DNA from: Actinomycetota bacterium
Lineage (GTDB): Bacteria; Actinomycetota; Thermoleophilia; Gaiellales; Gaiellaceae
DNA: 64,000 nucleotides
Direction of reading: 5' to 3'
NCBI GenBank assembly: GCA_046734455.1
Contig: JBKPRJ010000055.1
Span: forward strand, 14,151 to 78,150
Numbering within the stretch: the first letter of the stretch is position 1; every line of letters starts with the position of its first letter. This document shows positions 16,640 through 42,590 of the stretch, in pieces. The translations under genes and the position numbers were made by a program. The notes beneath the pieces were generated by a model. That model saw only the letters and a program-made list of their open reading frames with translations, was not told where the DNA came from and made no database searches.

Positions 16640-16713
16640 TCGGGACGGCCGGATTCGAACCGGCGGCCTCCTGCTCCCAAAGCAGGCGCGCTACCAGGCT
16701 GCGCCACGTCCCG
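16640..16713 (-). tRNA. tRNA-Pro (anticodon UGG)
   Basis: The 74-nt cloverleaf was folded by hand. Acceptor stem CGGGACG/CGTCCCG, D stem GCGC/GCGC, anticodon stem CCTGC/GCAGG with loop TTTGGGA, T arm GCCGG-TTCGAAT-CCGGC, discriminator A. No encoded CCA. Confidence 0.95.
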
Positions 16714-30217: not shown

Positions 30218-30230
30218 CCCGCTTACGGCT
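30197..30230. terminator. Very stable 15-bp hairpin between convergent genes (terminator candidate without a U tract)
   Basis: AGCCGTAAGCGGGCC-CTGA-GGCCCGCTTACGGCT has 15 perfect bp and a 4-nt loop. Confidence 0.5.
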
Positions 30231-30253
30231 TGCCTGCCCTTTCCCGACTTGTC

Positions 30254-30829
30254 CTAGGCGGTCTGCGGGCGAGCGAGGTGCTTCGTCGCAACGGCGGCTC
30301 CCCAGCCGAGAAGCAGGAGGCCGACGGCGAGGCCAGCGCCGACCGCCGCGTCGTTCCAGTCGAACCCGGCCGCGACGACCTGCGGCTCGCCGATCGACCG
30401 AGGCTGCGTCCGGACGAACTCGATCTTGTCGCTCGAAGTGCCGCTGGGCTGCGCCCGGACGACCTCGATCTGGTCTCCACTCGAAAGCGCGTAGTCCGTC
30501 GGCAGCGCGCGAGGCATGCCGTAGTCGGCGGCGACGAACTCGCTGCCGGTCGAGCGCGGCTGCTGCACGCGGACGAGCTCGATCTTGTCGCCGCGAACCT
30601 GCGCGTAGTCGCTCGGCAGTGCGCGAGGCATGCCGTAGTCGGCGGCGTTGACCTGCGAGTTGATCTGCGAAGAGGACGGGAAGTCCGAGACGAACGCCTG
30701 ATAGCCGTTGCCTTGAACGGAGGAACCCTCGTCCACCTTCGCCTGCGCCACCGGGGCTGCGACCGCTGCGATCGCGAGCCCGAGGGCGATCCGCTTGACC
30801 AGCCAGTTCCTTCTCCGATTGCTGCGCAT
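30254..30829 (-). CDS. Secreted repeat protein with a C-terminal membrane anchor
   Basis: Likely start is MRSNRRRNWLVKRIALGLAIAAVAAPVAQA (signal peptide). It contains the tandem repeats AADYGMPRALP(S/T)DYA...D(K/Q)IE(L/V)VR.Q and a C-terminal TM segment (AAVGAGLAVGLLLLGWGAAV). Confidence 0.7.
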   Translation of the reverse strand: MRSNRRRNWLVKRIALGLAIAAVAAPVAQAKVDEGSSVQGNGYQAFVSDFPSSSQINSQVNAADYGMPRALPSDYAQVRGDKIELVRVQQPRSTGSEFVAADYGMPRALPTDYALSSGDQIEVVRAQPSGTSSDKIEFVRTQPRSIGEPQVVAAGFDWNDAAVGAGLAVGLLLLGWGAAVATKHLARPQTA

Positions 30830-30925
30830 CTTCTGTGCTCCCTTCCTGCGACCCCTGCTCTTGCGCACCAGACGGAAGGGCGGCCGCTTTTCTTCCACCG
30901 GCAGCCGGTTAGAGTCTTACGGGCC

Positions 30926-32125
30926 GTGAAACAGATCTATCCGGCCACGATCACCGGGAAGAGCTTCGCGCCCGGCGGCAGCGTGCTCGACCACAACTTC
31001 GGGGCGGGTGAGCAGTACACCCTCGGAGTCGAGGAGGAGTACATGCTCCTCGACGGCGAGAGCTTCGATCTCGTCCAGCACGTCGACACCGTGCTCTCAG
31101 CCGCCCAGAACGGCGAGCTGACCGACCGCATTGGGCCGGAGCTCATGCAGTCCGTCGTCGAGATCTCGACCCCGGTGTGCAAGAGCGTCGCCGACGTGGA
31201 CGCCGAGCTCCGCAAGCTCAGGGGCCTCGTCACCGGGATCGCCGGCGAACGCGGGATGCGCGTCGGTTCCGCGGGCACTCACCCGTTCAGCCTGTTCGAG
31301 CGCCAGCGGATCACGGCCCGCGACCGCTACCGCAACCTCGTCGACCAGCTGCAGTACGTGGCTCGGCGCGAGCTCATCTTCGGGCTCCACATCCACGTCG
31401 CCGTGGACGACCCGGAGAAGGCGATCAAGGTGACGAGCGCGCTCCTCCTGCACCTGCCGGACTTCCTCGCGCTCTCCGCGAACTCACCGTTCTGGCGCGG
31501 CGAGGCGACGGGGCTCGCGTCCAGCCGGCAGATGGTCTTCGCCGCGTTCCCGCGCTCGGGGCCCCCGCCCCGCTTCCGCGACTACGCCGACTACGCGGAG
31601 GTCGTCGGCCAGCTGGAGAAGACCGGCTGCATCGCCGACTACACGCACATTTGGTGGGACATCCGGCTCCACCCCCGCTTCGGCACGATCGAGGTGCGCG
31701 TGATGGATGCGGTCACGCGCGTCGAGGAGACAGTTGCGCTCACCGCCTACGTACAGGCGCTCGTGAAGCACTACGCCGAGCGTTTCGAGTCCGGCGGCGA
31801 GCTGCCTTCGTTCCACCGCATCCTCATCTCCGAGAACAAGTGGCTCGGCGCGCGCTATGGGCTCGAGGCGCCGGTCATGGACCTCGCGACCGGCCGCAGG
31901 AACCGCGTGCCGATCGCGCAGCTCATCCGGCGCACGCTCAGGGACATCGAGCCGCACGCGCGCGAGCTCGGCGCCGAGCGCGAGCTCGAGGGCATCCGCG
32001 CGATCCTCGGGAAGGGAAACGGCGCCGACCGCCAGCTCCGCGTCTTCAACGCGAACCGCGACATCGTCGAGGTCGCGAGCGAGATCGCAGACGCGACCGA
32101 GGCGGCAGCGGTGGCTGCGAGATGA
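30926..32125 (+). CDS. Carboxylate-amine ligase (YbdK / glutamate-cysteine ligase family 2)
   Basis: YTLGVEEEYMLLD...ELMQSVVEISTPVC...ELIFGLHIHVAV...ANSPFW...IWWDIRLHPRFGTIEVRVMD is the GCS2 signature. The start is GTG 30926, or alternatively GTG 30983. Confidence 0.9.
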   Translation: MKQIYPATITGKSFAPGGSVLDHNFGAGEQYTLGVEEEYMLLDGESFDLVQHVDTVLSAAQNGELTDRIGPELMQSVVEISTPVCKSVADVDAELRKLRGLVTGIAGERGMRVGSAGTHPFSLFERQRITARDRYRNLVDQLQYVARRELIFGLHIHVAVDDPEKAIKVTSALLLHLPDFLALSANSPFWRGEATGLASSRQMVFAAFPRSGPPPRFRDYADYAEVVGQLEKTGCIADYTHIWWDIRLHPRFGTIEVRVMDAVTRVEETVALTAYVQALVKHYAERFESGGELPSFHRILISENKWLGARYGLEAPVMDLATGRRNRVPIAQLIRRTLRDIEPHARELGAERELEGIRAILGKGNGADRQLRVFNANRDIVEVASEIADATEAAAVAAR

Positions 32126-32583
32126 TCGGCGTCGGCGACGCCGTCCCTGCAGCTCGAGTGTGGCTGACACCTCGTGATGACGCGGAGCTCCGCGAGCTCG
32201 CCGAGGGCTCGCCTTACCTCCTGCTCTTCTACCTCTTCGACTGGTCGAGCACCTGAACGGACGAGTTCACGCTCCTGCGTGACAGGGGCCAGGAGTTCGA
32301 GGAGGCGGGCGTGAAGGTCTTCGGGATCTCGCGCGACAGCCCTTGGTCGCACGTGGCCTGGGCCCAGGCGCTCGACCTCTCGACTGCGCTCCTCTCCGAC
32401 TGGAACGGCGAGGCCGTGGCGGGCTTCGGCATCGGCCATGACTACCGGGGAATGGAAGGCGTCGCCGAGCGCAGCGCGTTTCTCGTCGACGGAGACGGCA
32501 TCATCCGCGGGACATGGCGGTACGAGCCTGGCCAAGTCCCCGACTTCGACGAGCTGCTGGCAGCCGCCCGCTCGCTCTCGTAA
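32122..32583 (+). CDS. AhpE-like 1-Cys peroxiredoxin with Sec (UGA 32254-32256) at the peroxidatic position
   Basis: ATG 32122 is in an ATGA overlap with the ligase stop. The frame continues through TGA 32254-32256 into track ORF 32311..32583 (same frame, the intervening 54 nt are open). The joined 153-codon product reads LLLFYLFDWSST-U-TDEFTLLRD...VFGISRDSPWSHVAW...LLSDWNGE...AFLVDGDGIIRG. Confidence 0.85.
32254..32296 (+). other. Sec UGA codon plus candidate SECIS region
   Basis: Two mutually exclusive hairpins follow the UGA. One is UCACGC/GCGUGA (32267-32282, loop UCCU). The other is CUCCUG/CAGGAG (32272-32295, 12-nt loop containing GGGG). Confidence 0.5.
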
Positions 32584-34457
32584 CCCTCCTCTACGCGGCC
32601 GCGGCGGTCGCGGCGACCTGGCCGGCGATCGGCTCGTTCGGAAGCGCGTTCATGGCGAGCGGCGGCGAGGGTCACGGCGCCCCGCCGGCCGGCGACCACC
32701 TGCAGACCCTGTACCGGTTTTGGCTCGTCGGCCACCAGCTGTCGAACGGCGCCGCGCCCTGGCTGGACCCGTACAGCTTCCAGCCGCTCGCCGAGCAGCA
32801 GACCGTGCTCGGCGGCTGGCCCTTCGGACTCATCTACTGGCCGCTCGGCGCGATCTTCGGGCCGATCGTCGCATGGAACCTCCTGCTGCTCGGGACGATC
32901 GTCGCCGCAGGCCTCGTCACCTTCCTCTGGCTGCGGGCGCTCGACCTCGGCCCGTGGGCAGCGGCGATCGGGGGCCTCGCCTTCGCGGTCGCTCCTTACC
33001 GGCTCGACCAGAGCGCGTCCGGCCACCTGCTCGGCTGGGCCGCGCTGTTCATCCCGCTCGCGCTCCTCGGGATCGAGCGGGTGCGGGTCGCCGCCACCCC
33101 GCGGCGGGCGCACGGCTGGGGGGCGCTCACCGCCGTGTCCCTCGCCTCGATCGCGCTCTCCGGGCAGCTGCACCTCGCGCTCGGCGCGATTCCGTTCGTC
33201 CTCGCCTACGCGCTCGTGCGCCGCGGGCGGATCCCGCTTCTCTGGACCGCGGTCGGGTCCATCGTCGCAGCGGTGGTCGGGCTCGTCGTCCGCTACACGC
33301 TCATCGCGGGCTCGGCGGAAGACCAGGGGCGTTCGCTCGCGGACGTGCGCCGGTTCCAGGCGGAGTGGGCCGACCTCTTGAACCGCTGGCATCGCCCCGG
33401 AAGCGAGGAGTTCGTCTACTTCGGCTGGCTGACACCCTTGCTCGCCGTGGCCGGACTCGTGGTCCTCTGGCGGGGGCGGCGCTGGCTGGCCGTGGTGCTC
33501 GGGCTGGGCGCTCTGCTTCCGATCCTCTTCACCGTCGGCACGAACCTGCCGACCTACTCGCCGCTCTGGCACGCGCTGCCGCCGCTCCGCTTCCCGCGGG
33601 TGCCGGAGCGCTTCATGCCGATCGCCGACCTCGCACTGGCCGCGCTACTCGCGTTCGCCGCCGCGGAGCTCGTGCAAAGAGCCGGGCGGCGCGGCGCCGC
33701 CCTGGCCGCCGGGCTACTCGTGCTCGTCGCCCTCGACCTCGGCGCACAGCCGGTCTCGGCGACCGCGGCCGACCCGGACAATGCGGCGTTCGCGGCCGTC
33801 GCGCCCGGCCGGATCCTCGATCTGCCGCTCTTCGATCCGGGGATCCACTACGGCTCGGTCTACGACTACTACGAGCTACAGGCTCCGCGGGAGCGCCCGC
33901 AGGGGTACAACACGCTCGCGCCGCGGAGCGCCTATTCGTTCGCGTTCACGTACAACCGGATCGGGTGCGGCGTCTGGGAGCCCGGCGACGAGGCGACGCT
34001 CGAGCGGCTCGGCGTCGAGAACGTCCTCCTCCAAACGGGCGTCTACCAGCAGGCGAGAGAGCGGTCGGCGTGGTTTGCCTGGCGCGAGCTGGAGCAGCAA
34101 GGGTGGGCAGCGGTGAAAGAGGACGGCGCAGTCACGCTTTTCACGCGCGGCTCTGCGCCGCGTACCCCGACGGTCCCCGAGCCCAGCCACGACCAACCCG
34201 TCTTCTGTCAGGGCTGGCGCGACGGGAGAACGACCGAGCTGCAGGCGCCGTTCTGGGTCTACGGGACCGGCCCGTTCACCCTGGTGCTCACGTCGGAGGA
34301 GCCCATCCGCGCAACCATCACGGTCAACGGGCAGATCCTGTACGAGGACCGCGTCGACGGGCGCGCGACCGCCCAGCTCGAGTTCCCCGAGGAGGAGTGG
34401 CACGCGGTCGTCCTCGACGCGACGAGCCCGGGGCTCGGACTCGCGTTCGTGCGCTAG
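32514..34457 (+). CDS. Large polytopic membrane protein (possible GT-C-type glycosyltransferase-like); hypothetical
   Basis: 647 aa. About 12 N-terminal TM helices are followed by a soluble C-terminal domain. It overlaps the peroxiredoxin 3' end by 70 nt if ATG 32514 is used. Confidence 0.75.
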   Translation: MAVRAWPSPRLRRAAGSRPLALVTLLYAAAAVAATWPAIGSFGSAFMASGGEGHGAPPAGDHLQTLYRFWLVGHQLSNGAAPWLDPYSFQPLAEQQTVLGGWPFGLIYWPLGAIFGPIVAWNLLLLGTIVAAGLVTFLWLRALDLGPWAAAIGGLAFAVAPYRLDQSASGHLLGWAALFIPLALLGIERVRVAATPRRAHGWGALTAVSLASIALSGQLHLALGAIPFVLAYALVRRGRIPLLWTAVGSIVAAVVGLVVRYTLIAGSAEDQGRSLADVRRFQAEWADLLNRWHRPGSEEFVYFGWLTPLLAVAGLVVLWRGRRWLAVVLGLGALLPILFTVGTNLPTYSPLWHALPPLRFPRVPERFMPIADLALAALLAFAAAELVQRAGRRGAALAAGLLVLVALDLGAQPVSATAADPDNAAFAAVAPGRILDLPLFDPGIHYGSVYDYYELQAPRERPQGYNTLAPRSAYSFAFTYNRIGCGVWEPGDEATLERLGVENVLLQTGVYQQARERSAWFAWRELEQQGWAAVKEDGAVTLFTRGSAPRTPTVPEPSHDQPVFCQGWRDGRTTELQAPFWVYGTGPFTLVLTSEEPIRATITVNGQILYEDRVDGRATAQLEFPEEEWHAVVLDATSPGLGLAFVR

Positions 34458-35791
34458 ACGTCGACGAAGACCGGTGGGCGCAGGAGCTCGGACTGGCCGC
34501 CGGGGGCCGACTGTTCGTCGCTTCGGCCTGCCATTCCTTCGATGTCTCGCATGCCCGGAAGGAAGAGCGCGCCCAAGGTTGCAACGGTACCGACGGCCGC
34601 TGCGACAACAAGCGTCGTCGGAGCGCCCAAGAGTTCGGCAACCGGCGCGGTCAGCGCGAAGGACAGCGGGAGGAGCCCAATCGAGATCAACCAGTCGAGG
34701 CTCGACACCCGGCCGAGCATCGAGGCCGGTACGTGGCGTTGCTTGATCGTCGCCCACACGATCGTCCCTGCCGTTTCGAGCGCGTTGAACGCGAGACAGG
34801 CGATCATCAGCTGCCACGAGGCGGTCGCGAGCCCGTATCCGGCCACGGCGAGTGTGGCCACGGTCCACGTCCCGTACATCACGGTCACGTCCCTCTGCGG
34901 ATGGCCCCGCTGACCCATGAAAAGCGCCGCACCCACGGCTCCCACGCCGCCGGCCGCAAAGACGAGACCGAGATCCCCGGCGGATGCATGGAGGACGTTC
35001 TTCACGACGTACGGCAACAGCACTTCTGCGGGTCCGAGGAAGGCGAGGTAGGCGATCGCGGCCGACAGCAGCGTCCCCCAGAGCCAGACCCGTCCGGTTA
35101 CGAACCGAAGCCCTTCCTTCATCGCGCGCACCGGTGACTCGGCATGGTCCGAGCGCGGGTGCACGGGCGGCGTCATCGCGAACACGGCCACCGTCGAGGC
35201 GACAAACGAGAGCGCGTCCAGCGCGAACGCCGCGCCCGTCCCGGCGGTGGCGACGAGGACACCGCCGAGTGCCGGCCCGAGCAGGCGCAGGGTGATCGGC
35301 CGCACGAACTGGTCGAGCGAGTTTGCGGCCGGTAGATCCTTGCCGGGCACGACGTCCGGGACGATTGCCTCAAACGCGGGCGTGAAGAACGCCGTTCCGA
35401 TCCCGTATACGGCCACGATGGCCAGGAGGTGCCAGAAGGTGAGGAGATCGGTCAGCGCGAGCAGTGCAAGCACTCCCACGACGAGCGCCCGCCCGATGTC
35501 GGCCCAGAGCATGACCATGCGGCGGTCGAGCCGATCGCTCAGGATCCCTGCCGGCAGGAGGAAGACGAGGGTCGGGACGGTCATCCCGATGCCGAGGATT
35601 GAAAGCGCAGCGGGCGCGTTCCACAGCTCGTAGGCCTGCCATGCCATTGCGACGAGAAAGATGCCGTCCCCGAGCAGCGAGATGGTCATCCCCGCCCAGA
35701 GAAGGCGGAAGTCACGGTGGCGGAGCGGCGAAAAGAGGTTGACGCGGGAGAACCCGCCTGGGCGGTCCAGCGCCTCGTGGCTATGCTGCAC
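34454..35791 (-). CDS. MFS transporter (EntS/MFS_3-like exporter type)
   Basis: 445 aa. FRLLWAGMTISLLGDGIF...LSDRLDRR is a typical MFS N-terminus and loop 2-3 motif. The GTG start overlaps the stop of the GGDEF-EAL gene by 11 nt. Confidence 0.9.
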   Translation of the reverse strand: MQHSHEALDRPGGFSRVNLFSPLRHRDFRLLWAGMTISLLGDGIFLVAMAWQAYELWNAPAALSILGIGMTVPTLVFLLPAGILSDRLDRRMVMLWADIGRALVVGVLALLALTDLLTFWHLLAIVAVYGIGTAFFTPAFEAIVPDVVPGKDLPAANSLDQFVRPITLRLLGPALGGVLVATAGTGAAFALDALSFVASTVAVFAMTPPVHPRSDHAESPVRAMKEGLRFVTGRVWLWGTLLSAAIAYLAFLGPAEVLLPYVVKNVLHASAGDLGLVFAAGGVGAVGAALFMGQRGHPQRDVTVMYGTWTVATLAVAGYGLATASWQLMIACLAFNALETAGTIVWATIKQRHVPASMLGRVSSLDWLISIGLLPLSFALTAPVAELLGAPTTLVVAAAVGTVATLGALFLPGMRDIEGMAGRSDEQSAPGGQSELLRPPVFVDV

Positions 35792-38700
35792 TGCCGGCGA
35801 CCTCGTCGAGCCCGAGATCGAGATACTCGACCAGGTCGTCGCGGCTCATGGGCTTGGCGAACAGGAATCCCTGTCCGAGCTCGCACCCGAGGTCTCGAAG
35901 TGAGCCGATCTGCTCGGGGAACTCGATTCCCTCCGCGACGACCTCGAGATTGAGGCTGTTGCCCATTGCGATGATCGCACCCGCCAGGCCCGAGTCCTCG
36001 TGCTCCTTCGTGAGGAAGGCTCGATCCATCTTGAGGATGTCGACAGGGAACCGGCTCAGATACGAGAGCGAGGAATACCCGGTTCCGAAGTCGTCCATCG
36101 CCAGCATGATCCCCAGCCCCTTCAGCTCGTTCAGCCGCGCGACCGCGAGGTCGGTATCGGCCATCATCACGCTCTCGGTGATCTCCAGGACGAGCGAAGC
36201 GGGCGGCAGGCCGCTCGAAGCGAGTGCGTTCTGCACATCGTCCACGATCGTCTCGGACTGCAGCTGCTTCACCGAAAGGTTGACGCTCACGGTCAGCGGG
36301 GGAACCTTGTCCGAGCGCTCGTGCAAAGCTGCCCCTTGCTTGCAGGCCTGCTCGAGCACCCAACGGCCGATCGGGATGATCAGACCGGTCTCTTCGGCAA
36401 GGGGGATGAAGTTCAGCGGCGGGATCATCCCGCGCTCCGGATGCATCCAGCGAAGGAGGGCCTCGACGCCGTAGTCCGTGCGGGAGGCGAGGTTCACCAC
36501 CGGCTGGTAGTAGACCTCGAGCTGCTCGAACTCGAGCGCCTGCTGGAGCTGTGCCTGCAGCTCCAGACGCTCGACGACTTGCTCGTGCATCGTCGGCTCG
36601 AACACGCGATAGCTCCCCTTGCTGTCACGCTTCGCCATGTACATCGCGACGTCGGCGTTGCGGAGCAGCTCCTCGGCGTCGGGACTTCCGAACTCGTTTC
36701 CGGCCAAGCAGATTCCGACGCTCGCCCGGGGATAGACCTGCTTGGCCCCTACTTCGTAGGGAGCTTCGAGCGAAGCGAGAACACGCGCGGCGACGTCAGC
36801 CGCATCGGCCGAATCGCTGATCCCGTCGAGCAGGATCGCGAATTCATCCCCGCCGAAGCGGGCCACGGTGTCCGGGGGCCGCACGGCGAGCAGCAGCCGA
36901 CGCCCGACCTCTTGGAGGACGGTGTCTCCGGCCGCATGACCGAGGCTGTCGTTGACGGTCTTGAAGTCGTCGAGATCGATGAACATGACCCCGATCGACG
37001 GCCCTCCGCGAAGAGAGCGCATGATCGAGTGCTGGACGCGGTCTGCGAACAGGGCGCGGTTCGCGAGGTTCGTGACGGGGTCGTGGAAGGCCTGGTGAGC
37101 GAGCTGCTCCTCGAACGCCTTGCGCTCGCTGACGTCGCGGCTGTTGAGAACGATCCCGCGCACGTGTTCGTCCTGGAGCAGGTCGGTGTGCTGGACCTCG
37201 AACTGGAGCCAGGTGCCGTCGCGGTGCTTCAGGCTGCACTCGATCACGTGTGTCTCGGCGCCACCGCCGGCGTAGGAGTCTGCGAGACCCGACAGAATCT
37301 GCGTCAGCCGTGGACGGTCCACCGGCGCGAGGATCCGCGCAAACTCGGTCCCCTCCATCTCGTCGGGCCTGTAGCCGAGCACACGCTCCACCGATGGACT
37401 CTGGTACGTGACGGTTCCGTGCGCGTCGAGGACGGTGATGAGGTCGCTGGAGTGGGCGACGAGGGAGCGGAAGCGAGCCTCGTTCTGGCGCCGGTGGAGA
37501 TCCTCGGCGAGGCTGGCGCCCTCGAGCGCGAGGGATACCTGGCTGCTCAGCGACTCGAGCGAGTCGACGAGCTCTCGAGCAATCGGAGTCCCCGCCGAGA
37601 GGAAGAGAACGCCGCGCATCTCCTCGCGGACGGCGAGCGGCAGAAAGAGCGCCACAGCGCTTCCCCTAGCGTGCAGGTCGTCGAGAACCTGTGGTGGCAC
37701 GCTCGCGCTCCAGCGCTGTGTCGGCCCGGACACCGATTCGTGTAGCCAGCTGTTGGTCTCTTTCGACAGCTGCCATTCGTCCTCCGTCTCGGTGGACGCG
37801 GCCACGACGGCGCCATCCGACTGGTAGAGGACGAGCCGCGCGCTCACGTCCTCATCGGCGAGAGTCCGGACGGCGGAGATCGCGGCCCGGTTGACCTGCT
37901 CCCGGCCGGCCGCGGCGACGAGGTCGACTCCCGCGGCTCTCAGCGCGAGCTCGCGAGCGGCGGCGCGCTCCTCCTGTCGGACGAGCCCGGCCATGCGCAT
38001 GACCACGAGGAGAAAGAGGATCGCCGACGCGAGGATCAGGACGAGCAGGTCGGTGTCTCCCCACGCCTGCCAGGCTCGAATGCTCGGCGCGATGAGACAC
38101 GCGCCCGCGAGCAGGAGCAGACGAAGTGACGTGAGACGCGTTCGGTCCTCGAGCGCCGGCTCCTCGAGCGTTCGCATCGAGGGATGCAAGGCCGCCGCCC
38201 CCCAGAGGATGTAGTACACGATCCAACCGAGGTCGTAGCTCAGCTGGTGGTCGTACGCGCCGGTTAGGAGCGCGTAGTTGTACGCCGAGTCGACGGTCAG
38301 GAGAGAGACGATGCTGCCGATCAGCAGATAGAAGGCGGGCGCACGCTTGCCCATGTCGACCGCGAGCCTGATCGCCGCCGCGAGGAGCAGGATGTCGCCG
38401 AGCGGATAGGCAGCGGAGACCGCCTTCTCCAAGGTCGTCAGTCCCGAGAGATGGATGTTCGGAGCGATCAGGAAGACCCACGAGATGAGCGCGATGCCGA
38501 CGGTGAGAATGAGCGAGTCGATGACGCCGGCGCGGTCTCCGCGCGGGTTTCGCCGCCTGACGAGGATGAGCAATCCCGCGATGAGCGCCGGGTAGACCAG
38601 CAGGTACAGGACGTCGCCGAGCGACGGGAACTCGACATCGGCTCCGAAGACCTTCGGATAGCTGTACGTGTAGAGGTCGCCGGCGAAGAAGAGGAACTGG

Positions 38701-38918
38701 CCGACGATGAAGAGGAACCACGCGGCTCGTGCGCGCGGCCGATGGAGGTAGATCCCGACCGCGATGGCGATGGAGGACGAGAGGCCGAGGAGGTTGATCA
38801 GGGGCCCGTTGCCCTTGAGCGGCGGAAACCACATGTAGGCGGCCGTCAACGCCGCACAGACGGCCACGTAGACGATCCAGACGCGCTTGCGCCAGTTCAC
38901 CGACCTCAGGGGCTTCAT
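35781..38918 (-). CDS. Membrane sensor PAS-GGDEF-EAL protein (putative bifunctional diguanylate cyclase/phosphodiesterase)
   Basis: Real start is ATG 38916-38918, in an ATGA overlap with the upstream gene (1045 aa). About 10 TM helices are followed by a PAS domain, GGDEF (ARFGGDEFAIL) and EAL (VEALLRW, DDFGTGYSSLSYL). Confidence 0.92.
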   Translation of the reverse strand: MKPLRSVNWRKRVWIVYVAVCAALTAAYMWFPPLKGNGPLINLLGLSSSIAIAVGIYLHRPRARAAWFLFIVGQFLFFAGDLYTYSYPKVFGADVEFPSLGDVLYLLVYPALIAGLLILVRRRNPRGDRAGVIDSLILTVGIALISWVFLIAPNIHLSGLTTLEKAVSAAYPLGDILLLAAAIRLAVDMGKRAPAFYLLIGSIVSLLTVDSAYNYALLTGAYDHQLSYDLGWIVYYILWGAAALHPSMRTLEEPALEDRTRLTSLRLLLLAGACLIAPSIRAWQAWGDTDLLVLILASAILFLLVVMRMAGLVRQEERAAARELALRAAGVDLVAAAGREQVNRAAISAVRTLADEDVSARLVLYQSDGAVVAASTETEDEWQLSKETNSWLHESVSGPTQRWSASVPPQVLDDLHARGSAVALFLPLAVREEMRGVLFLSAGTPIARELVDSLESLSSQVSLALEGASLAEDLHRRQNEARFRSLVAHSSDLITVLDAHGTVTYQSPSVERVLGYRPDEMEGTEFARILAPVDRPRLTQILSGLADSYAGGGAETHVIECSLKHRDGTWLQFEVQHTDLLQDEHVRGIVLNSRDVSERKAFEEQLAHQAFHDPVTNLANRALFADRVQHSIMRSLRGGPSIGVMFIDLDDFKTVNDSLGHAAGDTVLQEVGRRLLLAVRPPDTVARFGGDEFAILLDGISDSADAADVAARVLASLEAPYEVGAKQVYPRASVGICLAGNEFGSPDAEELLRNADVAMYMAKRDSKGSYRVFEPTMHEQVVERLELQAQLQQALEFEQLEVYYQPVVNLASRTDYGVEALLRWMHPERGMIPPLNFIPLAEETGLIIPIGRWVLEQACKQGAALHERSDKVPPLTVSVNLSVKQLQSETIVDDVQNALASSGLPPASLVLEITESVMMADTDLAVARLNELKGLGIMLAMDDFGTGYSSLSYLSRFPVDILKMDRAFLTKEHEDSGLAGAIIAMGNSLNLEVVAEGIEFPEQIGSLRDLGCELGQGFLFAKPMSRDDLVEYLDLGLDEVAGSAA

Positions 38919-40219
38919 GCCGCGTACTCGTTCGGCTGGGCGGGACGAAGGTCGAACCCCGCGGCGAGCTTGCCGATGACGTCGACGAGTTGCTCGATCT
39001 CCGCCTGTGAATTGGCAGCGGTGACTTGGATCCGAAAGCCGACCTCGCTCTTGGGCACGAGCGGGTACGCAGCCAGCGTGACGTAGATGCCGTTCTCGAA
39101 CAGGAAGCGGCCCGCCGCGTCGATGTCCTCGTGCCGGGCAAGAGGGACTTCGATGATGGGGAAACCGGAGCGATTGGGCGTGTGAATCCCCAGGCGGTCG
39201 AGGCACTCGAGGATCGAGGCCGTCTTTCTCCAAAGGTCGGTTCGAATCTGCTCTCCGCGAGTGTCGTTGACGTCGAACCCAGCGAGCACCGTGGCGAGCG
39301 AAGCCGTGGGCGAGGGACCTGAGTAGAGATACGGAGGCGCCGCGGTCTTCAAGAGCTGCTTCAGCTGCGTCGGACAGGCGATGAACGCTGCGAGCGACGA
39401 GTACGACTTCGAGAAGCCCGACACGAGCACGATGCCGTCGTAGGACTCTCCGTAATGCCGGATGACGCTGTTCCCCCGGACTCCGTATGGGCTCGGCTCG
39501 TCACTCGACCTCTCCCCGATGACACCGAACCCATGGGCATCATCGACATACAGGATCGCGTCGTATCGCCGCGCGACGCGAGCAAACTCACGAATGTCGG
39601 GCGCGTTCCCTGTCATGCTGTTCACGCCGTCCATGCAGACGAGGCGTGTCGTCGACCGGTCATCGCGGAGAAGCTGCTCGAGGTCGTCGGGATCCTCGAA
39701 ACGGAACCGCTTGACGGTCGCGCCGCGGGCCGACGCGAACTGGCAGCCGTCGTAGATGGTCTTGTGTGCCCTGTTGTCCACGAAGATCGTCCCGTCCCCT
39801 GCGAGCACCGGGATCACCGACAGGTGGATCAGCGTGATGGTCGGCAGGACGAGCGCGTCTTCGCATCCCACCAGAGATACGAGACGCCTTTCGATCTCCT
39901 CATAGAGGACTGGACTTCCGAGCATCCGCGACCAGCTGGGATGCGTCCCCCATTTCTCGAGATATGCCGGAACGGCATCGATGATCTCTCGGTCGAGATC
40001 GAGCCCGAGGTAGTTGCAGGACGCGAAGTCGGCGAGCCATTTGTCTCCGATCCTGATCATCCGCCCGTCGATCTCGTCGATGACCGCGTCCGTCATCGGA
40101 TTGGACCGCTCGAGCTCGGCCAGCTCGCTGCAGGCAGCCAGCCAGCGGTCGATCCAACGCGTCGATGCATGGGGGGGCCGGTGGCCGACCGGCCGATAGG
40201 CACTCATGCGCACAAACAT
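38915..40219 (-). CDS. PLP-dependent alpha-oxoamine synthase-family enzyme (BioF/Kbl/SPT/CqsA-like)
   Basis: 434 aa. SCNYLGL, DNRAHKTIYDG, YVDDAHGFGVIG and GFSKSYSS (PLP lysine) are the class I/II aminotransferase-fold AONS pattern. The start may be 40219, 40207 or an internal ATG. Confidence 0.88.
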   Translation of the reverse strand: MFVRMSAYRPVGHRPPHASTRWIDRWLAACSELAELERSNPMTDAVIDEIDGRMIRIGDKWLADFASCNYLGLDLDREIIDAVPAYLEKWGTHPSWSRMLGSPVLYEEIERRLVSLVGCEDALVLPTITLIHLSVIPVLAGDGTIFVDNRAHKTIYDGCQFASARGATVKRFRFEDPDDLEQLLRDDRSTTRLVCMDGVNSMTGNAPDIREFARVARRYDAILYVDDAHGFGVIGERSSDEPSPYGVRGNSVIRHYGESYDGIVLVSGFSKSYSSLAAFIACPTQLKQLLKTAAPPYLYSGPSPTASLATVLAGFDVNDTRGEQIRTDLWRKTASILECLDRLGIHTPNRSGFPIIEVPLARHEDIDAAGRFLFENGIYVTLAAYPLVPKSEVGFRIQVTAANSQAEIEQLVDVIGKLAAGFDLRPAQPNEYAA

Positions 40220-40673
40220 CGTCTTTCGGGATCGCTTCCTTTAGCGCTTCGCCGCTCCGAAAGGACGTTTGTGTGCGAGGCGCTACATCCCCATCGCGTG
40301 GTGAGGAGTGTGCGTTTCGCAGGAATCGCGAGCCGAAGTCGTCACCGACATCACCGCGACAGCACCGGAGCAGCGCCAGACAGCACATCGGAGCACCTCC
40401 GCTTTGGAGGAGGTCAGAAGGTGCACCCCCACGCTGACGGTCCGTCCACAGGCCAAAGCTGGAGCGAGCCGGAACGCTTTACGGAAACGCGGCGGCGCCA
40501 GGGAGGTGCCCTATAACCCGGATTTGTGCGGATGTGGTGACCAGCATTGACTCAAAGCAGGGACTCTGAAAGTCTCGTCGTTGGATCGTTCGCCGCGTCG
40601 CCGTAGTTCGACGGCCTCGACGAAATCTCGCCGCTCGCCGTAATGCGCTGCCCTCAGGCGGCCCTTCGCGTCT

Positions 40674-41210
40674 CTACGCGGCCTTCTCGAAGGGCAACTC
40701 GGGCGTCGCCTGCGCGCCGTGCGCCGTAGCAAGGGCGGGCCCGCGCCGCTCAAGGAGCTGGTAGACGAGACCGATCGTCGTTCCGAGGGCGAGGTGTGCG
40801 ATCCACCACACCCACAGCGGGCTGATCAAACCGGTGGTGAACAGCCTATCCTCGGGCGTGTTGACCGGCAGGAAGACGTACCGCTGCAGCGCCCACAGTC
40901 CGGCGCCGTACGCCGCGCCGAGGACGAGTGCCCCAGGTGGGTTGCGCAGCACCCGCAGCAGCACGACGAAGACGATGGCCACGAAGATCGCGTTCAGCAT
41001 GTGACCGCCGATCCCGAGCACGATCGGCCCGATGTGGTCGACCGGCCGGCCGAAGTGGTTGAGCCCGCCGATGTAGGCCCAGATTCCCATCGGTGCATCC
41101 CAGGCGGTGTGGGAGCTCGAGGCCCAGCCGTAGATCATCTCGACCGCGGCCATCGCCAGGCCAGCGGCCGCGCCGGCGACGACGCCAACGAGGAGAGTGC
41201 GTCTGGTCAT
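40674..41210 (-). CDS. Hypothetical 4-5 TM membrane protein
   Basis: 178-aa hydrophobic protein with high GC3. Confidence 0.7.
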   Translation of the reverse strand: MTRRTLLVGVVAGAAAGLAMAAVEMIYGWASSSHTAWDAPMGIWAYIGGLNHFGRPVDHIGPIVLGIGGHMLNAIFVAIVFVVLLRVLRNPPGALVLGAAYGAGLWALQRYVFLPVNTPEDRLFTTGLISPLWVWWIAHLALGTTIGLVYQLLERRGPALATAHGAQATPELPFEKAA

Positions 41211-41507
41211 CGGTTTCCTCTCTTCCGACGTTGGTTCAAAGAGCCTGTCTCAGGCTGTCCTCGATCGCTGCCCTACCCGGGCACCGTCACGTGCGTTGGT
41301 CAAACCTCACGATCACGAACTTGTTCGCGGCCTCGCGCGGCCTTTGCCAGCGTGGTCGAACGGCAGCGGGCGGCGCCCGGAGAATGGCGGCCGGGACGCT
41401 CGCCGCCCTTGCTCCGGGAGCGCGTTCGGACCGACGCCCCGAGCGTCGGCCCAGCTCACGACGCTCGAGGACGGCGCTCCGGTCGGTGGAGCAAGGAGGG
41501 AGTGGGA

Positions 41508-42590
41508 TTACGCTCGCACGGCCGAGTCCGCTGCTGTTGCCAGCGCGGTGGCTGCGGTGAAGAACTCCTGGGACTGGCCATTGAAAAGCCCGCTAGCAGC
41601 AAGACCCTGGACCGCGCCCAGGGCCGCTCCCACCGTCTCAGTGGGACGGATGATCGAGCAGATCGGGAACTTGCGATCGAGGAAGACCGTCGGCTCGGGC
41701 ATGATCAGGTTGGTCTGCGTCAGCTCGCTGCCGCTGGCGTTGAGATCGGGGAACACCAACCCGTTCGTCGGATCGGTGAGCGGCGGGGCGTTGCCGGCTT
41801 TGTCCTGCCAGGTCTGAAAGTGCATCGTCTCCGTCGGCCCGATGCTGAGAAGGATGCGTAGTACTTCTGGATCGCTGACCCGCTGCGCGAGCGAGGCATA
41901 GAGGCTTGTGCCGCCTTGCTCGATCATGCCGAAGTGGAAGGCGGCCGTGTTGGCAATCGCCTGCAGGTGCTTGCGCGGGCGGAGGTCGGCGTCGGTTCGG
42001 GGGATCGCGGGGAACTTCCCGGCCGCCAGCCCCGGCACCGCCTGCGGCAGGGTGTCGCCAAGGTCGGGGTTCTGCGAGTCGCTTCGGTACCGCGTCCAGT
42101 AGCTCGTGTCGACCGTGAGCTCCATCAGGTTGGTGAGCCGTCCGACCTGCGCTGCGCCGCTGGCCTTGCTGCCCGGGACCGTGCGAAACGGGTCGAGGTT
42201 GATGGGCTGCGCACCGCGCGCCTTCAGGTAGGCGTTGATGAAGTCTGCGTGGCTTTGCTCGTCGTCGGCGTTGTCGTGGATGTACTGGGGCATGTCCTCG
42301 TCGAGTACCGATAGCGCCCGGGTGTACGCGCGATTCCCGCTTCCGCCGCGGATCTCGTCGTCCTGAACTCCGCCGAGCTCGTTGTACTGCTTCCAGAGGT
42401 CGGCTTCGAGTAGCTCCGCCGCAGCGAGGAACTGGAGAATTGCCGCGTCGCCCGCAGGCAGACTCCCGCCCGCGAAGGCGACCGGCGTATCGATCAAGAG
42501 CCGGCCGGCACCGAGGGTCAATGCGCCCGCCGCGGCTCCCTTGACCAGGAAAGCGCGGCGGCTGGTCCGAGACTGAGACAAGTCACTCAC
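41508..42590 (-). CDS. Ferritin-like domain protein with a Tat-type signal
   Basis: 360 aa. The twin-arginine leader is SRRAFLVKGAAAG. Ferritin-like helices follow (AAELLEADLW...DDEQSHADFI...). SD AAGGAGGG precedes the GTG start. Confidence 0.8.
   Translation of the reverse strand: MSDLSQSRTSRRAFLVKGAAAGALTLGAGRLLIDTPVAFAGGSLPAGDAAILQFLAAAELLEADLWKQYNELGGVQDDEIRGGSGNRAYTRALSVLDEDMPQYIHDNADDEQSHADFINAYLKARGAQPINLDPFRTVPGSKASGAAQVGRLTNLMELTVDTSYWTRYRSDSQNPDLGDTLPQAVPGLAAGKFPAIPRTDADLRPRKHLQAIANTAAFHFGMIEQGGTSLYASLAQRVSDPEVLRILLSIGPTETMHFQTWQDKAGNAPPLTDPTNGLVFPDLNASGSELTQTNLIMPEPTVFLDRKFPICSIIRPTETVGAALGAVQGLAASGLFNGQSQEFFTAATALATAADSAVRA

What the first reader, a model, noticed from the sequence alone, without database searches (positions are those of the whole stretch)
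34454..40219. Three overlapping genes: alpha-oxoamine synthase, membrane PAS-GGDEF-EAL sensor and MFS exporter; a candidate signal synthesis/sensing/export module wired to c-di-GMP
Seen: the AONS-family PLP enzyme (38915..40219) overlaps a 1045-aa protein by ATGA. That protein has about 10 TM helices, a PAS domain, an intact GGDEF motif (RFGGDEF) and intact EAL motifs (EALLR, DDFGTGYSS). Its stop in turn overlaps the GTG start of an EntS-like MFS transporter by 11 nt. No biotin, threonine or sphingolipid genes are adjacent.

Known: besides BioF/Kbl/SPT, the AONS family includes the autoinducer synthases CqsA (Vibrio) and LqsA (Legionella). Those genes lie next to the membrane sensors that detect the alpha-hydroxyketone product.

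Inference: the operon may make an amino- or hydroxy-ketone-type signal, export it through the MFS protein and sense it with the polytopic domain of the GGDEF-EAL protein. This would couple a diffusible signal directly to c-di-GMP turnover instead of to a phosphorelay.
Basis: inference. Interest (0 to 1): 0.7.

Follow-up and report, generated by a model that had tools for sequence, protein, structure and literature searches.

The report
Aminoketone synthase wired to c-di-GMP sensor
A soil actinobacterium keeps three genes tightly together (a small-molecule aminoketone-making enzyme, a membrane sensor that makes and breaks the second messenger c-di-GMP, and an exporter), and related bacteria keep the same pairing after gene reshuffling or fuse it into one protein, which points to an undescribed chemical signalling module.

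Summary
Three overlapping minus-strand genes encode an alpha-oxoamine synthase (AONS), a 10TM-GAF-PAS-GGDEF-EAL enzyme with all catalytic motifs intact, and an MFS_3 transporter.

- **Host:** the window comes from a Gaiellaceae bacterium.
- **Enzyme class:** the AONS is not BioF, Kbl, SPT or CqsA/LqsA. It falls below every NCBIfam equivalog cutoff. It sits in a separate clade with 100% bootstrap support, whose nearest relatives are ACP-, FAAL- and PKS-fused AONS domains.
- **Synteny:** the triad is present in all 82 Gaiellaceae loci examined, while its flanking genes are not conserved.
- **More distant relatives (42-66% AONS identity):** the genes stay together in permuted orders.
- **Fusion:** in Streptomyces ossamyceticus-group isolates the sensor and the AONS form one 1,500-aa protein.
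- **Outgroup:** in a low-GC lineage, the same AONS clade sits beside a dCache histidine kinase.

The functional coupling between this AONS and membrane signal transducers is therefore strong. That the sensor detects the AONS product remains inference, because homologous 10TM sensors (Kitasatospora; the Streptomyces CdgC/CdgF architecture) also occur without an adjacent AONS.

Closest analogues are RpfF/RpfR and CqsA/CqsS. Verdict: new variant of a known kind, interest 0.74.

The parts
38915..40219 (-). Alpha-oxoamine synthase (AONS family, PLP-dependent), clade X. The probable true start is the ATG at 40207 (430 aa).
   Evidence: PF00155 E=6e-26. It scores below every NCBIfam equivalog cutoff. 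Catalytic H152, D226, H229, K271 and R396 are intact. The clade has 100% bootstrap support. Orthologues begin at MSAYRP.
35781..38918 (-). 10TM-GAF-PAS-GGDEF-EAL membrane protein, a predicted bifunctional diguanylate cyclase/phosphodiesterase (CdgF-like architecture). Its ATG overlaps the AONS stop (ATGA).
   Evidence: It is 39% identical over 1037 aa to a Kitasatospora EAL-domain protein.
37959..38918 (-). N-terminal polytopic sensor domain (residues 1-320): 10 TM helices joined by short loops.
   Evidence: Hydropathy scan. AlphaFold pLDDT 82 with 10 helices. No Pfam, PDB sequence or PDB fold match. 102 near-invariant residues, many of them polar.
37521..37901 (-). Weak GAF-like domain (residues 340-466).
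   Evidence: GAF_3 E=0.0016 and GAF_2 E=0.0074. A faint GAF hit is recorded on the L001 orthologue. It is the least conserved segment.
37119..37478 (-). PAS domain (residues 481-600).
   Evidence: PAS_4 E=1.8e-9 and TIGR00229 E=8.5e-19.
36618..37091 (-). GGDEF domain (residues 610-767) with an intact GGDEF motif and the RxxD I-site.
   Evidence: PF00990 E=4.9e-43. Motif conservation is 100%.
35850..36554 (-). EAL domain (residues 789-1023) with all catalytic motifs.
   Evidence: PF00563 E=5.8e-71. The catalytic positions of the motifs are 96-100% conserved.
34454..35791 (-). MFS_3-family transporter (12-TM class). Its GTG start overlaps the sensor stop by 11 nt.
   Evidence: PF05977 E=6e-50. 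Tet(V), 2A0121 and EntS models all score below cutoff. It is present in every related locus long enough to show it.
40218..40244 (-). Conserved promoter-like element directly upstream of the AONS gene: CTAAAG, about 15 nt, (G)TCGAT, about 11 nt, ATG.
   Evidence: TAAAG lies within 90 nt of the start in 60 of 78 loci, although upstream genes are unrelated. No Rfam family matches. Function is inferred only.

Best explanation
The three genes form a self-contained small-molecule/c-di-GMP signalling module.

**Shown**
- A catalytically intact AONS of a distinct clade ('clade X') is co-transcribed, and probably translationally coupled, with two partners: a membrane-embedded CdgF-like enzyme able both to make and to degrade c-di-GMP, and an MFS_3 transporter.
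- This linkage has been kept across Gaiellaceae, across more distant high-GC lineages with permuted gene order, and as a single fused polypeptide in Streptomyces.

**Inferred**
- The AONS condenses an amino acid with an acyl-CoA or acyl-ACP thioester to give an alpha-aminoketone. The product may be further reduced or may dimerise spontaneously.
- The MFS protein exports it.
- The compound, or a derivative, acts back on the sensor. It could bind within the membrane through the short-looped 10-TM domain, or inside the cell through GAF/PAS. Either way it would shift the cyclase/phosphodiesterase balance and hence c-di-GMP-controlled behaviour such as matrix production and attachment.

In logic it works like CqsA/CqsS with a c-di-GMP output, or like RpfF/RpfR with an AONS-type synthase.
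For: 1. **Synteny.** All 82 Gaiellaceae loci (72-95% AONS identity) carry AONS, then sensor, then MFS. Every locus with enough sequence has all three. The window's flanking genes recur in only 0-6 of those loci, and no fourth gene family is shared by more than 13 loci.
2. **Own promoter.** A conserved promoter-like motif sits directly upstream of the AONS whatever the upstream gene is.
3. **Linkage survives reshuffling.**
   - Sensor, AONS, MFS: L095 and L115.
   - MFS, AONS, sensor: L094.
   - Sensor, AONS, then a PAS-LuxR regulator: L085.
   - AONS, then the 10TM domain, at 42% AONS identity: L116 and L117 (hhalign E=1.6e-40).
   - Sources.
4. **Rosetta-stone fusion.** A 10TM-PAS-GGDEF-EAL-AONS protein of about 1,500 aa occurs in 5 RefSeq Streptomyces proteins plus JGI and Logan copies. 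They are 96-99% identical and the linker is conserved. It is a single 4,497-nt ORF in two independent assemblies.
5. **Different sensor, same clade.** In a low-GC lineage (39-44% GC), the AONS gene is immediately followed by a dCache_1-HAMP-HisKA-HATPase kinase in 6 of 8 loci. Five of those six, plus L103 and L104, also carry an SBP gene, and most of these an SDR and small EamA-like proteins; the sixth (L110) keeps only the AONS-kinase pair.
6. **Clade-specific association.** The sister enzyme P0481, outside clade X, has no adjacent sensor.
7. **Competent enzymes.** The AONS active site is intact. The GGDEF, I-site and EAL motifs are conserved.
8. **Sensor domain under constraint.** The short-looped 10-TM domain has 102 near-invariant residues, many of them polar, which suits an intramembrane ligand site.
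9. **Precedents.** RpfF/RpfR is a synthase-receptor pair that forms a physical complex (PMC6361424). The dCache kinase CqsR binds amino alcohols (PMC7046293, PMC12410723).
Against: - No chemistry or binding was tested. The product, its export and its perception are all inferred.
- The 10-TM domain is not exclusive to AONS loci. A full-length homologue in Kitasatospora (39% identity, same TM motifs) has no AONS or MFS nearby. The same architecture exists as CdgC/CdgF in Streptomyces (PMC6205966), and weak relatives occur in haloarchaeal kinases.
- The low-GC lineage uses an unrelated sensor domain (dCache), so there is no single conserved receptor fold.
- A synthase fused to its own receptor is unusual for a diffusible signal and fits a 'second output' reading equally well.
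- The Streptomyces fusion has no adjacent MFS.
- The AONS is a highly conserved (72-95%) core gene of the family, which resembles a housekeeping enzyme more than a typical variable autoinducer synthase.
Confidence: 0.45

Rival explanations
1. Dual-output sensor. The 10TM-GAF-PAS sensor responds to some other cue, such as membrane or redox state or an external compound. It then controls two outputs in parallel: c-di-GMP turnover and AONS activity. The AONS product is an exported effector (an antibiotic-like, surfactant-like or interspecies compound) that the sensor itself does not sense.
For: - In Streptomyces the AONS is a C-terminal domain of the sensor protein, the position where output domains usually sit.
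- Homologous 10TM sensors work without an adjacent AONS (PMC6205966), so the input need not be the AONS product.
- The nearest AONS relatives are natural-product-type ACP-, FAAL- and PKS-fused domains.
- An exporter is part of the module.
Against: - In most lineages the AONS is a separate protein, and it is encoded first in the operon.
- The low-GC lineage pairs the AONS with a complete sensor kinase and a periplasmic binding protein, which looks like a perception apparatus.
- No regulatory domain is evident on the free-standing AONS.
Confidence: 0.3
2. Envelope lipid module. The AONS acts like a serine palmitoyltransferase and makes a long-chain amino-ketone base for a membrane aminolipid. 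The MFS protein flips or transports the lipid intermediate, and the polytopic sensor monitors membrane composition.
For: - Bacterial SPTs are the second-best solved-structure matches (126 bits), and the SPT models score 176-189 bits.
- The nearest relatives use long-chain acyl-ACP donors.
- The MFS gives weak hits to LplT-type acyltransferase/transporter models.
- The sensor domain is buried in the membrane and has short loops.
- The AONS is a highly conserved core gene.
Against: - SPT equivalog cutoffs are missed by a wide margin (189 bits against 500).
- No gene family other than the three (for example a ketoreductase or a dedicated ACP) recurs in more than 13 of the 82 Gaiellaceae loci.
- Pairing with a dCache kinase and a periplasmic binding protein in the low-GC lineage is hard to reconcile with a structural lipid.
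Confidence: 0.12
3. Ordinary BioF or Kbl housekeeping enzyme that shares an operon with unrelated genes by chance.
For: JGI pipelines name the homologues '8-amino-7-oxononanoate synthase'. The best solved-structure match is the promiscuous Thermus BioF/Kbl enzyme (143 bits).
Against: - The bioF model scores 198 bits against a 426 cutoff, and the Kbl model 150 against 460.
- Identity to E. coli BioF and Kbl is 25%, and both fall outside the 100%-supported clade.
- No bio or tdh genes are nearby in any locus.
- The linkage survives gene-order permutation and a gene fusion, which chance co-location does not explain.
Confidence: 0.04

Closest known systems
CqsA/CqsS (Vibrio cholerae CAI-1) and LqsA/LqsS (Legionella)
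   Same: An AONS-family PLP enzyme is encoded next to a polytopic membrane sensor. A single enzyme can make the signal from primary-metabolism precursors. The low-GC branch of clade X even has an AONS gene followed by a sensor histidine kinase.
   Different: - It is not a member of that clade. NF005526 scores 80 bits against a 428 cutoff, and PDB CqsA scores 41 bits against 143 for the best hit.
- The output is c-di-GMP turnover rather than a phosphorelay.
- The sensor is an unrelated 10-TM domain plus GAF and PAS.
- An MFS exporter is part of the unit.
RpfF/RpfR (Burkholderia/Cronobacter BDSF system)
   Same: The signal synthase gene lies adjacent to a PAS-GGDEF-EAL receptor, so a diffusible signal is coupled directly to c-di-GMP. 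Synthase and receptor form a physical complex (PMC6361424), which parallels the Streptomyces sensor-AONS fusion.
   Different: The synthase is a crotonase-family enzyme that makes a cis-2 fatty acid, not an AONS. RpfR is cytoplasmic with no TM domain, and no exporter gene is present.
Streptomyces CdgF/CdgC (10TM-PAS-PAC-GGDEF-EAL; PMC6205966)
   Same: The domain architecture is the same, and CdgF also has intact GGDEF and EAL motifs. A Kitasatospora homologue is 39% identical over the full length and shares the TM motifs. The input signal of this sensor class is unknown.
   Different: The paper consulted does not mention any AONS next to cdgC or cdgF, and the Kitasatospora copy has none. Orthology to S. 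venezuelae CdgF could not be tested here.
ACP-, FAAL-ACP- and PKS-fused AONS domains (natural-product and long-chain amino-ketone synthases)
   Same: These are the nearest sequence relatives outside clade X, at 37-45% identity and 250-345 bits. They share the FASCNYLG-type motif, with Cys in place of BioF Asn47.
   Different: The window enzyme is free-standing, with no ACP or adenylation partner in the locus. It forms its own 100%-supported clade.
Thermus thermophilus AOS/KBL (PDB 7poa, 8s1y) and bacterial serine palmitoyltransferases (3a2b, 2jg2)
   Same: These are the best solved-structure matches (143 and 126 bits) over nearly the full length. They share the fold and the catalytic residues.
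   Different: Similarity is only at family level, and all equivalog cutoffs are missed.
CqsR (V. cholerae dCache histidine kinase that binds ethanolamine, serinol and alaninol)
   Same: It is a precedent for a dCache kinase sensing small amino alcohols (PMC7046293, PMC12410723). An AONS plus an SDR in the low-GC lineage would produce that class of compound.
   Different: This applies to the outgroup lineage only. It is an analogy from the literature and was not tested.

Membership tests
AONS (alpha-oxoamine synthase) family, fold-type I PLP enzymes | Aminotran_1_2 domain plus the PLP-binding Lys, stacking His, Asp and His of the D..H motif, and the carboxylate-binding Arg | tested here: met
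   PF00155 E=6e-26. K271, H152, D226, H229 and R396 align with E. coli BioF K236, H133, D204, H207 and R361.
BioF (8-amino-7-oxononanoate synthase) | Score at or above the TIGR00858 equivalog cutoff (426 bits) | tested here: not met
   198 bits. Identity to E. coli BioF is 25%, and BioF falls outside the clade.
BioF (8-amino-7-oxononanoate synthase) | Genomic association with bioA, bioB or bioD | tested here: not met
   No BioA, BioB or BioC hit in the 64-kb window or in 82 related loci.
Kbl (glycine C-acetyltransferase) | Score at or above the NF005394 or TIGR01822 cutoffs (460 and 493 bits), and adjacency to tdh | tested here: not met
   150 and 130 bits. No adjacent tdh, only two weak generic dehydrogenase hits among 82 loci.
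Bacterial serine palmitoyltransferase | Score at or above the NF047599, NF047600 or NF047603 cutoffs (500-670 bits) | tested here: not met
   189, 176 and 135 bits.
CqsA/LqsA alpha-hydroxyketone autoinducer synthases | Score at or above the NF005526 equivalog cutoff (428 bits) | tested here: not met
   80 bits. PDB CqsA chains score 41 bits, E=1e-9, and align only to residues 108-415. No CqsA or LqsA sequence was available to place in the tree.
CqsA/LqsA alpha-hydroxyketone autoinducer synthases | Synthase gene adjacent to the cognate membrane sensor gene | tested here: met
   The AONS is adjacent to a membrane sensor in the window, in 82 Gaiellaceae loci and in several distant lineages. This shows that it works like such a system, not that it is a member of the family.
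CqsA/LqsA alpha-hydroxyketone autoinducer synthases | Product is a diffusible alpha-hydroxy- or amino-ketone that activates the sensor | not testable with these tools
   This needs LC-MS and receptor assays.
GGDEF diguanylate cyclases | PF00990 domain with an intact GG(D/E)EF active site | tested here: met
   147 bits. GGDEF is 100% conserved in 49 orthologues, and the RxxD I-site is present.
EAL c-di-GMP phosphodiesterases | PF00563 domain with the catalytic residues of the EAL, N, E(xxE), DDFG(T/A)GYS, K, E and Q motifs | tested here: met
   239 bits. All motifs are present, and their catalytic positions are 96-100% conserved. Enzyme activity itself was not tested.
CdgF/CdgC-type 10TM-PAS-GGDEF-EAL proteins of Streptomycetaceae | Ten N-terminal TM helices followed by PAS-GGDEF-EAL, with full-length homology | tested here: met
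   The AlphaFold model shows 10 helices. A Kitasatospora 'EAL domain-containing protein' is 39% identical over 1037 aa. The architecture is as described in PMC6205966. Orthology to S. venezuelae CdgF itself is not testable, because that sequence is not on hand.
MFS_3 (PF05977) / EntS | PF05977 above the gathering score; the EntS equivalog NF007792 at or above 324 bits | tested here: inconclusive
   PF05977 scores 171 bits against a 27 cutoff, so that criterion is met. EntS scores 144 bits against a 324 cutoff, so that criterion is not met. Tet(V) at 248 bits and 2A0121 at 246 bits are also below their cutoffs. It is a family member whose substrate is unknown.
RpfF/RpfR DSF signalling | Crotonase-family synthase and an RpfR-type FI-PAS-GGDEF-EAL receptor | tested here: not met
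   The synthase is an AONS, not a crotonase, and the receptor has a 10-TM N-terminus. The resemblance is in logic only.

The most novel reading that the evidence does not exclude
Clade X AONS enzymes are a previously unrecognised family of autoinducer-type signal synthases, distinct from CqsA/LqsA. Their amino-ketone or amino-alcohol products would be perceived by whichever membrane transducer is encoded beside them: a 10TM-GGDEF-EAL enzyme in Gaiellaceae, Streptomyces and other high-GC lineages, or a dCache histidine kinase in a low-GC lineage.

If so, very abundant soil Actinomycetota would have a self-produced chemical signal wired directly to c-di-GMP. The orphan 10-TM sensor domain shared with the Streptomyces developmental regulators CdgC/CdgF would gain its first candidate ligand class.
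Probability: 0.35. Interest if true: 0.85.

Novelty: new variant of a known kind. Interest (0 to 1): 0.74.

Why it matters
- **Ecology.** Gaiellaceae are among the most abundant uncultured soil actinobacteria, and almost nothing is known about their signalling. At least 566 stretches in GTDB species-representative genomes encode a relative of this AONS, so the module is a core trait of a major soil lineage.
- **An open question becomes testable.** The inputs of membrane-bound GGDEF-EAL enzymes are mostly unknown. For the 10TM-PAS-GGDEF-EAL class, which includes Streptomyces CdgC (a key developmental cyclase) and CdgF, the literature states that the perceived signals are unknown (PMC6205966). 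A conserved, sometimes fused, small-molecule synthase gives a concrete hypothesis and a compound class to test.
- **Experimental handle.** The fusion occurs in cultured Streptomyces ossamyceticus-group strains.
- **Concept.** If confirmed, this would extend AONS-based cell-cell signalling beyond Proteobacteria. It would also add a second chemically distinct example, after DSF/RpfR, of a signal coupled directly to c-di-GMP without a phosphorelay.

Tried and rejected
1. **Whole-triad paralogues in one genome.** L008+L012 and L015+L023 looked like duplicated signal-receptor pairs. For L008/L012 the flanks are also 86-89% identical at nucleotide level, so these are most likely two strains in one bin. 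The idea was dropped.
2. **Fusion as artefact.** I first suspected the 1,500-aa fusion P0242 was a frameshift artefact. Its linker looks like translated intergenic DNA, and the related metagenome contig L092 has two separate genes. This was overturned. Fifteen cluster members exist, including 5 RefSeq Streptomyces proteins with a conserved linker, and the gene is a single ORF in two assemblies.
3. **Riboswitch or known RNA upstream of the AONS.** None was found at the gathering threshold or at E<=5.
4. **Sigma-70 promoter scan of 34000-41300.** It found nothing, and terminator-like hits were no more frequent than in shuffles.
5. **Identity of the 10-TM domain.** There was no Pfam hit, no PDB sequence hit, and no significant Foldseek match (best E=0.16, TM<=0.31).
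6. **Exact look-up of the window's AONS.** It is not on record, so the source genome was not identified beyond Gaiellaceae.
7. **Literature searches for an AONS plus GGDEF association.** They returned nothing relevant.
8. **A tree including SPT, CqsA and LqsA sequences.** None were obtainable with the tools, so placement relative to them rests on HMM and phmmer bit scores. The tree is neighbour-joining with 100 bootstraps, not maximum likelihood.
9. **Naming the low-GC lineage.** Neighbour proteins carry no source names.

Full report
**1. What is in the window**

The region lies in 64-68% G+C DNA.

- **AONS gene, 38915..40219.** It encodes an AONS-family PLP enzyme (PF00155, E=6e-26).
- **Sensor gene, 35781..38918.** Its ATG lies inside the ATGA that ends the AONS gene. 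The 1045-aa product carries PAS, GGDEF (E=4.9e-43) and EAL (E=5.8e-71) domains.
- **Transporter gene, 34454..35791.** It starts with GTG, 11 nt before the sensor's stop codon, and encodes an MFS_3 transporter (PF05977, E=6e-50).

Best hits identify the organism as a Gaiellaceae bacterium (Thermoleophilia, Actinomycetota). The exact AONS sequence is not on record.

Two small corrections apply:
- Orthologues begin at MSAYRP, so the AONS probably starts at the ATG at 40207.
- A weak GAF-like domain lies between the TM region and PAS.

**2. The enzymes look active**

- The AONS keeps the PLP lysine (K271), the stacking histidine (H152), the D226/H229 pair and the carboxylate-binding arginine (R396).
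- In the sensor, the GGDEF motif, the RxxD I-site and every canonical EAL motif are present. Their catalytic positions are 96-100% conserved in 49 orthologues. The protein is therefore a potential bifunctional cyclase/phosphodiesterase.
- The N-terminal 320 residues form 10 TM helices with short loops. AlphaFold gives pLDDT 82 and pTM 0.77.
- That domain has 102 near-invariant positions, many of them polar. It has no Pfam, PDB sequence or PDB fold match.

**3. Which kind of AONS**

NCBIfam scores against the equivalog cutoffs:

| Model | Score (bits) | Cutoff (bits) |
|---|---|---|
| BioF | 198 | 426 |
| SPT | 189 | 500 |
| Kbl | 150 | 460 |
| ALAS | 104 | 339 |
| CqsA/LqsA type | 80 | 428 |

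Scores against solved structures:

| Structure | Score (bits) |
|---|---|
| Thermus AOS/KBL | 143 |
| Bacterial SPT | 126 |
| Kbl | 114 |
| BioF | 85 |
| CqsA | 41 |

An exhaustive search of 1.84 billion cluster representatives and Pfam scans of the hits show two layers of relatives.
- The nearest are a few free-standing enzymes at 45-66% identity.
- Next come many AONS domains fused to ACP, FAAL-ACP or PKS modules, at 37-45% identity.

A neighbour-joining tree with 100 bootstraps defines a clade with 100% support, which I call clade X. It holds:
- the Gaiellaceae enzymes;
- several high-GC metagenomic relatives;
- a Streptomyces fusion protein;
- a low-GC lineage.

E. coli BioF and Kbl are 25% identical and fall outside it. 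No bio or tdh genes occur in the window or beside any related locus. The enzyme is equally not a CqsA/LqsA-clade member.

**4. Synteny**

- A scan of one genome per GTDB species found at least 566 stretches encoding a relative.
- In all 80 loci kept, plus 2 from an exact look-up, the order is AONS, then sensor, then MFS on one strand. Every locus with enough sequence has all three.
- The window's own flanking genes recur in only 0-6 of these loci.
- Clustering all flanking ORFs finds no fourth family in more than 13 loci. No gene family other than the three, such as a dedicated ACP, acyl-CoA ligase or reductase, is therefore consistently attached.
- A conserved motif lies directly upstream of the AONS start in most loci, whatever the upstream gene is: CTAAAG, about 15 nt, (G)TCGAT, about 11 nt, ATG. 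The triad appears to carry its own promoter.

**5. Beyond Gaiellaceae**

A metagenome scan and further look-ups show that the linkage survives rearrangement.

| Arrangement | Loci | AONS identity to window |
|---|---|---|
| Sensor, AONS, MFS | L095 | 62% |
| Sensor, AONS, MFS | L115 | 44-48% |
| MFS, AONS, sensor | L094 | 66% |
| Sensor, AONS, then a PAS-LuxR regulator | L085-L087 | 61% |
| LuxR-type regulator upstream, then AONS, MFS | L093 | 66% |
| AONS, then the 10-TM domain (hhalign E=1.6e-40) | L116, L117 | 42% |

The strongest item is a gene fusion.
- A protein of about 1,500 aa has the architecture 10TM-PAS-GGDEF-EAL-linker-AONS.
- Its 90% cluster has 15 members. Five are RefSeq Streptomyces proteins: WP_338059894.1, WP_364703040.1, WP_391329554.1, WP_355402671.1 and WP_055516048.1.
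- The copies are 96-99% identical and the linker is conserved.
- The gene is one 4,497-nt ORF in two independent assemblies (L113, L114).
- A neighbouring gene is named as from S. ossamyceticus.
- The gene follows an exopolysaccharide-type cluster: a GT2 enzyme, UDP-glucose dehydrogenase, epimerases and a beta-helix protein.

The sister enzyme P0481, outside clade X, has no adjacent sensor.

**6. The low-GC branch of clade X (39-44% GC; 46-49% AONS identity)**

- In 6 of 8 loci, the AONS gene is immediately followed by a dCache_1-HAMP-HisKA-HATPase sensor kinase, often with overlap.
- In one further locus the kinase lies two genes away, with response regulators nearby.
- Seven of the eight loci carry a divergent NMT1/phosphonate-type binding protein, and most of these also an SDR and two small EamA-like membrane proteins.
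- In L110 the flanks differ, but the AONS-kinase pair is kept.
- Sources.

This is a CqsA/CqsS-like layout with a different sensor. An AONS plus an SDR would give vicinal amino alcohols, a class that the dCache kinase CqsR is known to bind (PMC7046293, PMC12410723). That link is inference from the literature.

**7. What the sensor is related to**

- The 10-TM domain is not unique to these loci. A Kitasatospora plasmid encodes a full-length homologue (39% identity over 1037 aa, same TM motifs) with no AONS or MFS nearby.
- Haloarchaeal HAMP kinases give weak matches.
- The architecture matches Streptomyces CdgC and CdgF ('10TM-PAS-PAC-GGDEF-EAL'). Both are membrane-bound, and CdgC is a major developmental cyclase. 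[quoted passage not shown]

**8. Interpretation**

Shown: a distinct, catalytically competent AONS clade is persistently coupled to membrane signal-transduction proteins, through operon structure, gene order, gene fusion and partner swapping. In the window's lineage the partners are a CdgF-like c-di-GMP enzyme and an MFS_3 transporter.

Inferred, and my best explanation (0.45): the AONS makes an alpha-aminoketone-type compound. The compound is exported and acts back on the sensor to set c-di-GMP levels.

Rivals:
- **Dual-output sensor (0.30).** The AONS is a second output of the sensor. The position of the AONS in the fusion and the AONS-less homologues favour this reading.
- **SPT-like envelope-lipid module (0.12).**
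- **Coincidental housekeeping BioF or Kbl (0.04).**

Nothing here tests chemistry, export or binding.

**9. Novelty**

Full-text searches found no description of an AONS linked to a GGDEF/EAL protein. The logic has precedents:
- CqsA/CqsS, an AONS synthase beside a membrane sensor;
- RpfF/RpfR, a synthase beside a PAS-GGDEF-EAL receptor, with a physical synthase-receptor complex (PMC6361424).

I therefore rate it a new variant of a known kind rather than categorically new. It matters for three reasons:
- it is a core trait of a very abundant soil lineage;
- it offers the first candidate ligand class for an orphan sensor family that includes Streptomyces developmental regulators;
- the fusion exists in cultured strains, so it can be tested directly.

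**10. Limits**

- The tree is neighbour-joining and lacks SPT, CqsA and LqsA sequences.
- The low-GC lineage is unnamed.
- Apparent double triads within single MAGs are probably strain mixtures.
- Whether Gaiellaceae carry a separate canonical bioF could not be checked.

Noticed in passing
window 40218-40244 (minus strand), with a hairpin-like CGTCCTTTCGGAGCG at about 40253-40267: A conserved upstream element (CTAAAG, about 15 nt, (G)TCGAT, about 11 nt, ATG) precedes the AONS gene in most Gaiellaceae loci, although the upstream genes are unrelated. It resembles an ECF-sigma-type -35/-10 pair with a near-leaderless mRNA. It is often preceded by a GC-rich hairpin with a TTCG loop (for example L007 GCACCCATTCGGGTGC). 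No Rfam family matches.
   Followed up: partly
L113 and L114, 2806-9764 (Streptomyces ossamyceticus-group assemblies): The fused sensor-AONS gene lies directly downstream of an exopolysaccharide-type gene set on the same strand: a GT2 glycosyltransferase, NAD-dependent epimerases, UDP-glucose dehydrogenase and a beta-helix protein. This may be the c-di-GMP-controlled output.
   Followed up: no
L001 4280-9954 and L002 930-6604 (Gaiellaceae relatives): Upstream of the triad lie a 942-aa SARP/BTAD-AAA-TPR regulator, a second MFS_3 transporter and a MASE9-HD-GYP-type protein (a possible further c-di-GMP phosphodiesterase). This set is not present in the window.
   Followed up: no
L060 13843-16860; L070 13833-15500: A second GGDEF-EAL gene follows the MFS gene in some loci. 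In L060 it is 40% identical to the window sensor and carries a 30%-identical 10-TM domain.
   Followed up: no
L085 6693-7775; L093 62-1438: LuxR-type (GerE) HTH regulators flank the AONS in distant lineages. One of them has a PAS domain. They could be additional receptors or effectors of the system.
   Followed up: no
L112 5968-7464 (Haladaptatus plasmid); also H2 Nocardia farcinica: Weak homologues of the 10-TM sensor domain (about 30% identity, E=2e-7) occur at the N-terminus of haloarchaeal HAMP histidine kinases. The domain is therefore a mobile sensor module used with different outputs and across domains of life.
   Followed up: partly
window 32514-34457 (+): A 647-aa polytopic membrane protein (weak PTPS_related hit, E=9e-4) converges on the MFS gene, and the two stop regions overlap by 4 nt. 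It is conserved only in the closest relative, L003.
   Followed up: partly
window 30230-32125 (+): A GCS2/YbdK-type carboxylate-amine ligase ORF has about 255 residues upstream of the domain when read from the first TTG. The true start is probably later, or there is an uncharacterised N-terminal extension.
   Followed up: no
window 40674-41210 (-) and 41508-42590 (-): A 178-aa membrane protein with no family assignment and a ferritin-like protein with a twin-arginine-like N-terminus lie upstream of the triad. Neither is found in any of the 82 related loci.
   Followed up: partly
window 16640-16713 (-): A single tRNA gene is the only Rfam gathering-threshold match in the window.
   Followed up: no
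P0249 (JGI metagenome protein, clade X): This clade X member has Glu in place of the PLP-stacking His and Ile in place of the conserved Ser. It may be an inactive paralogue.
   Followed up: no
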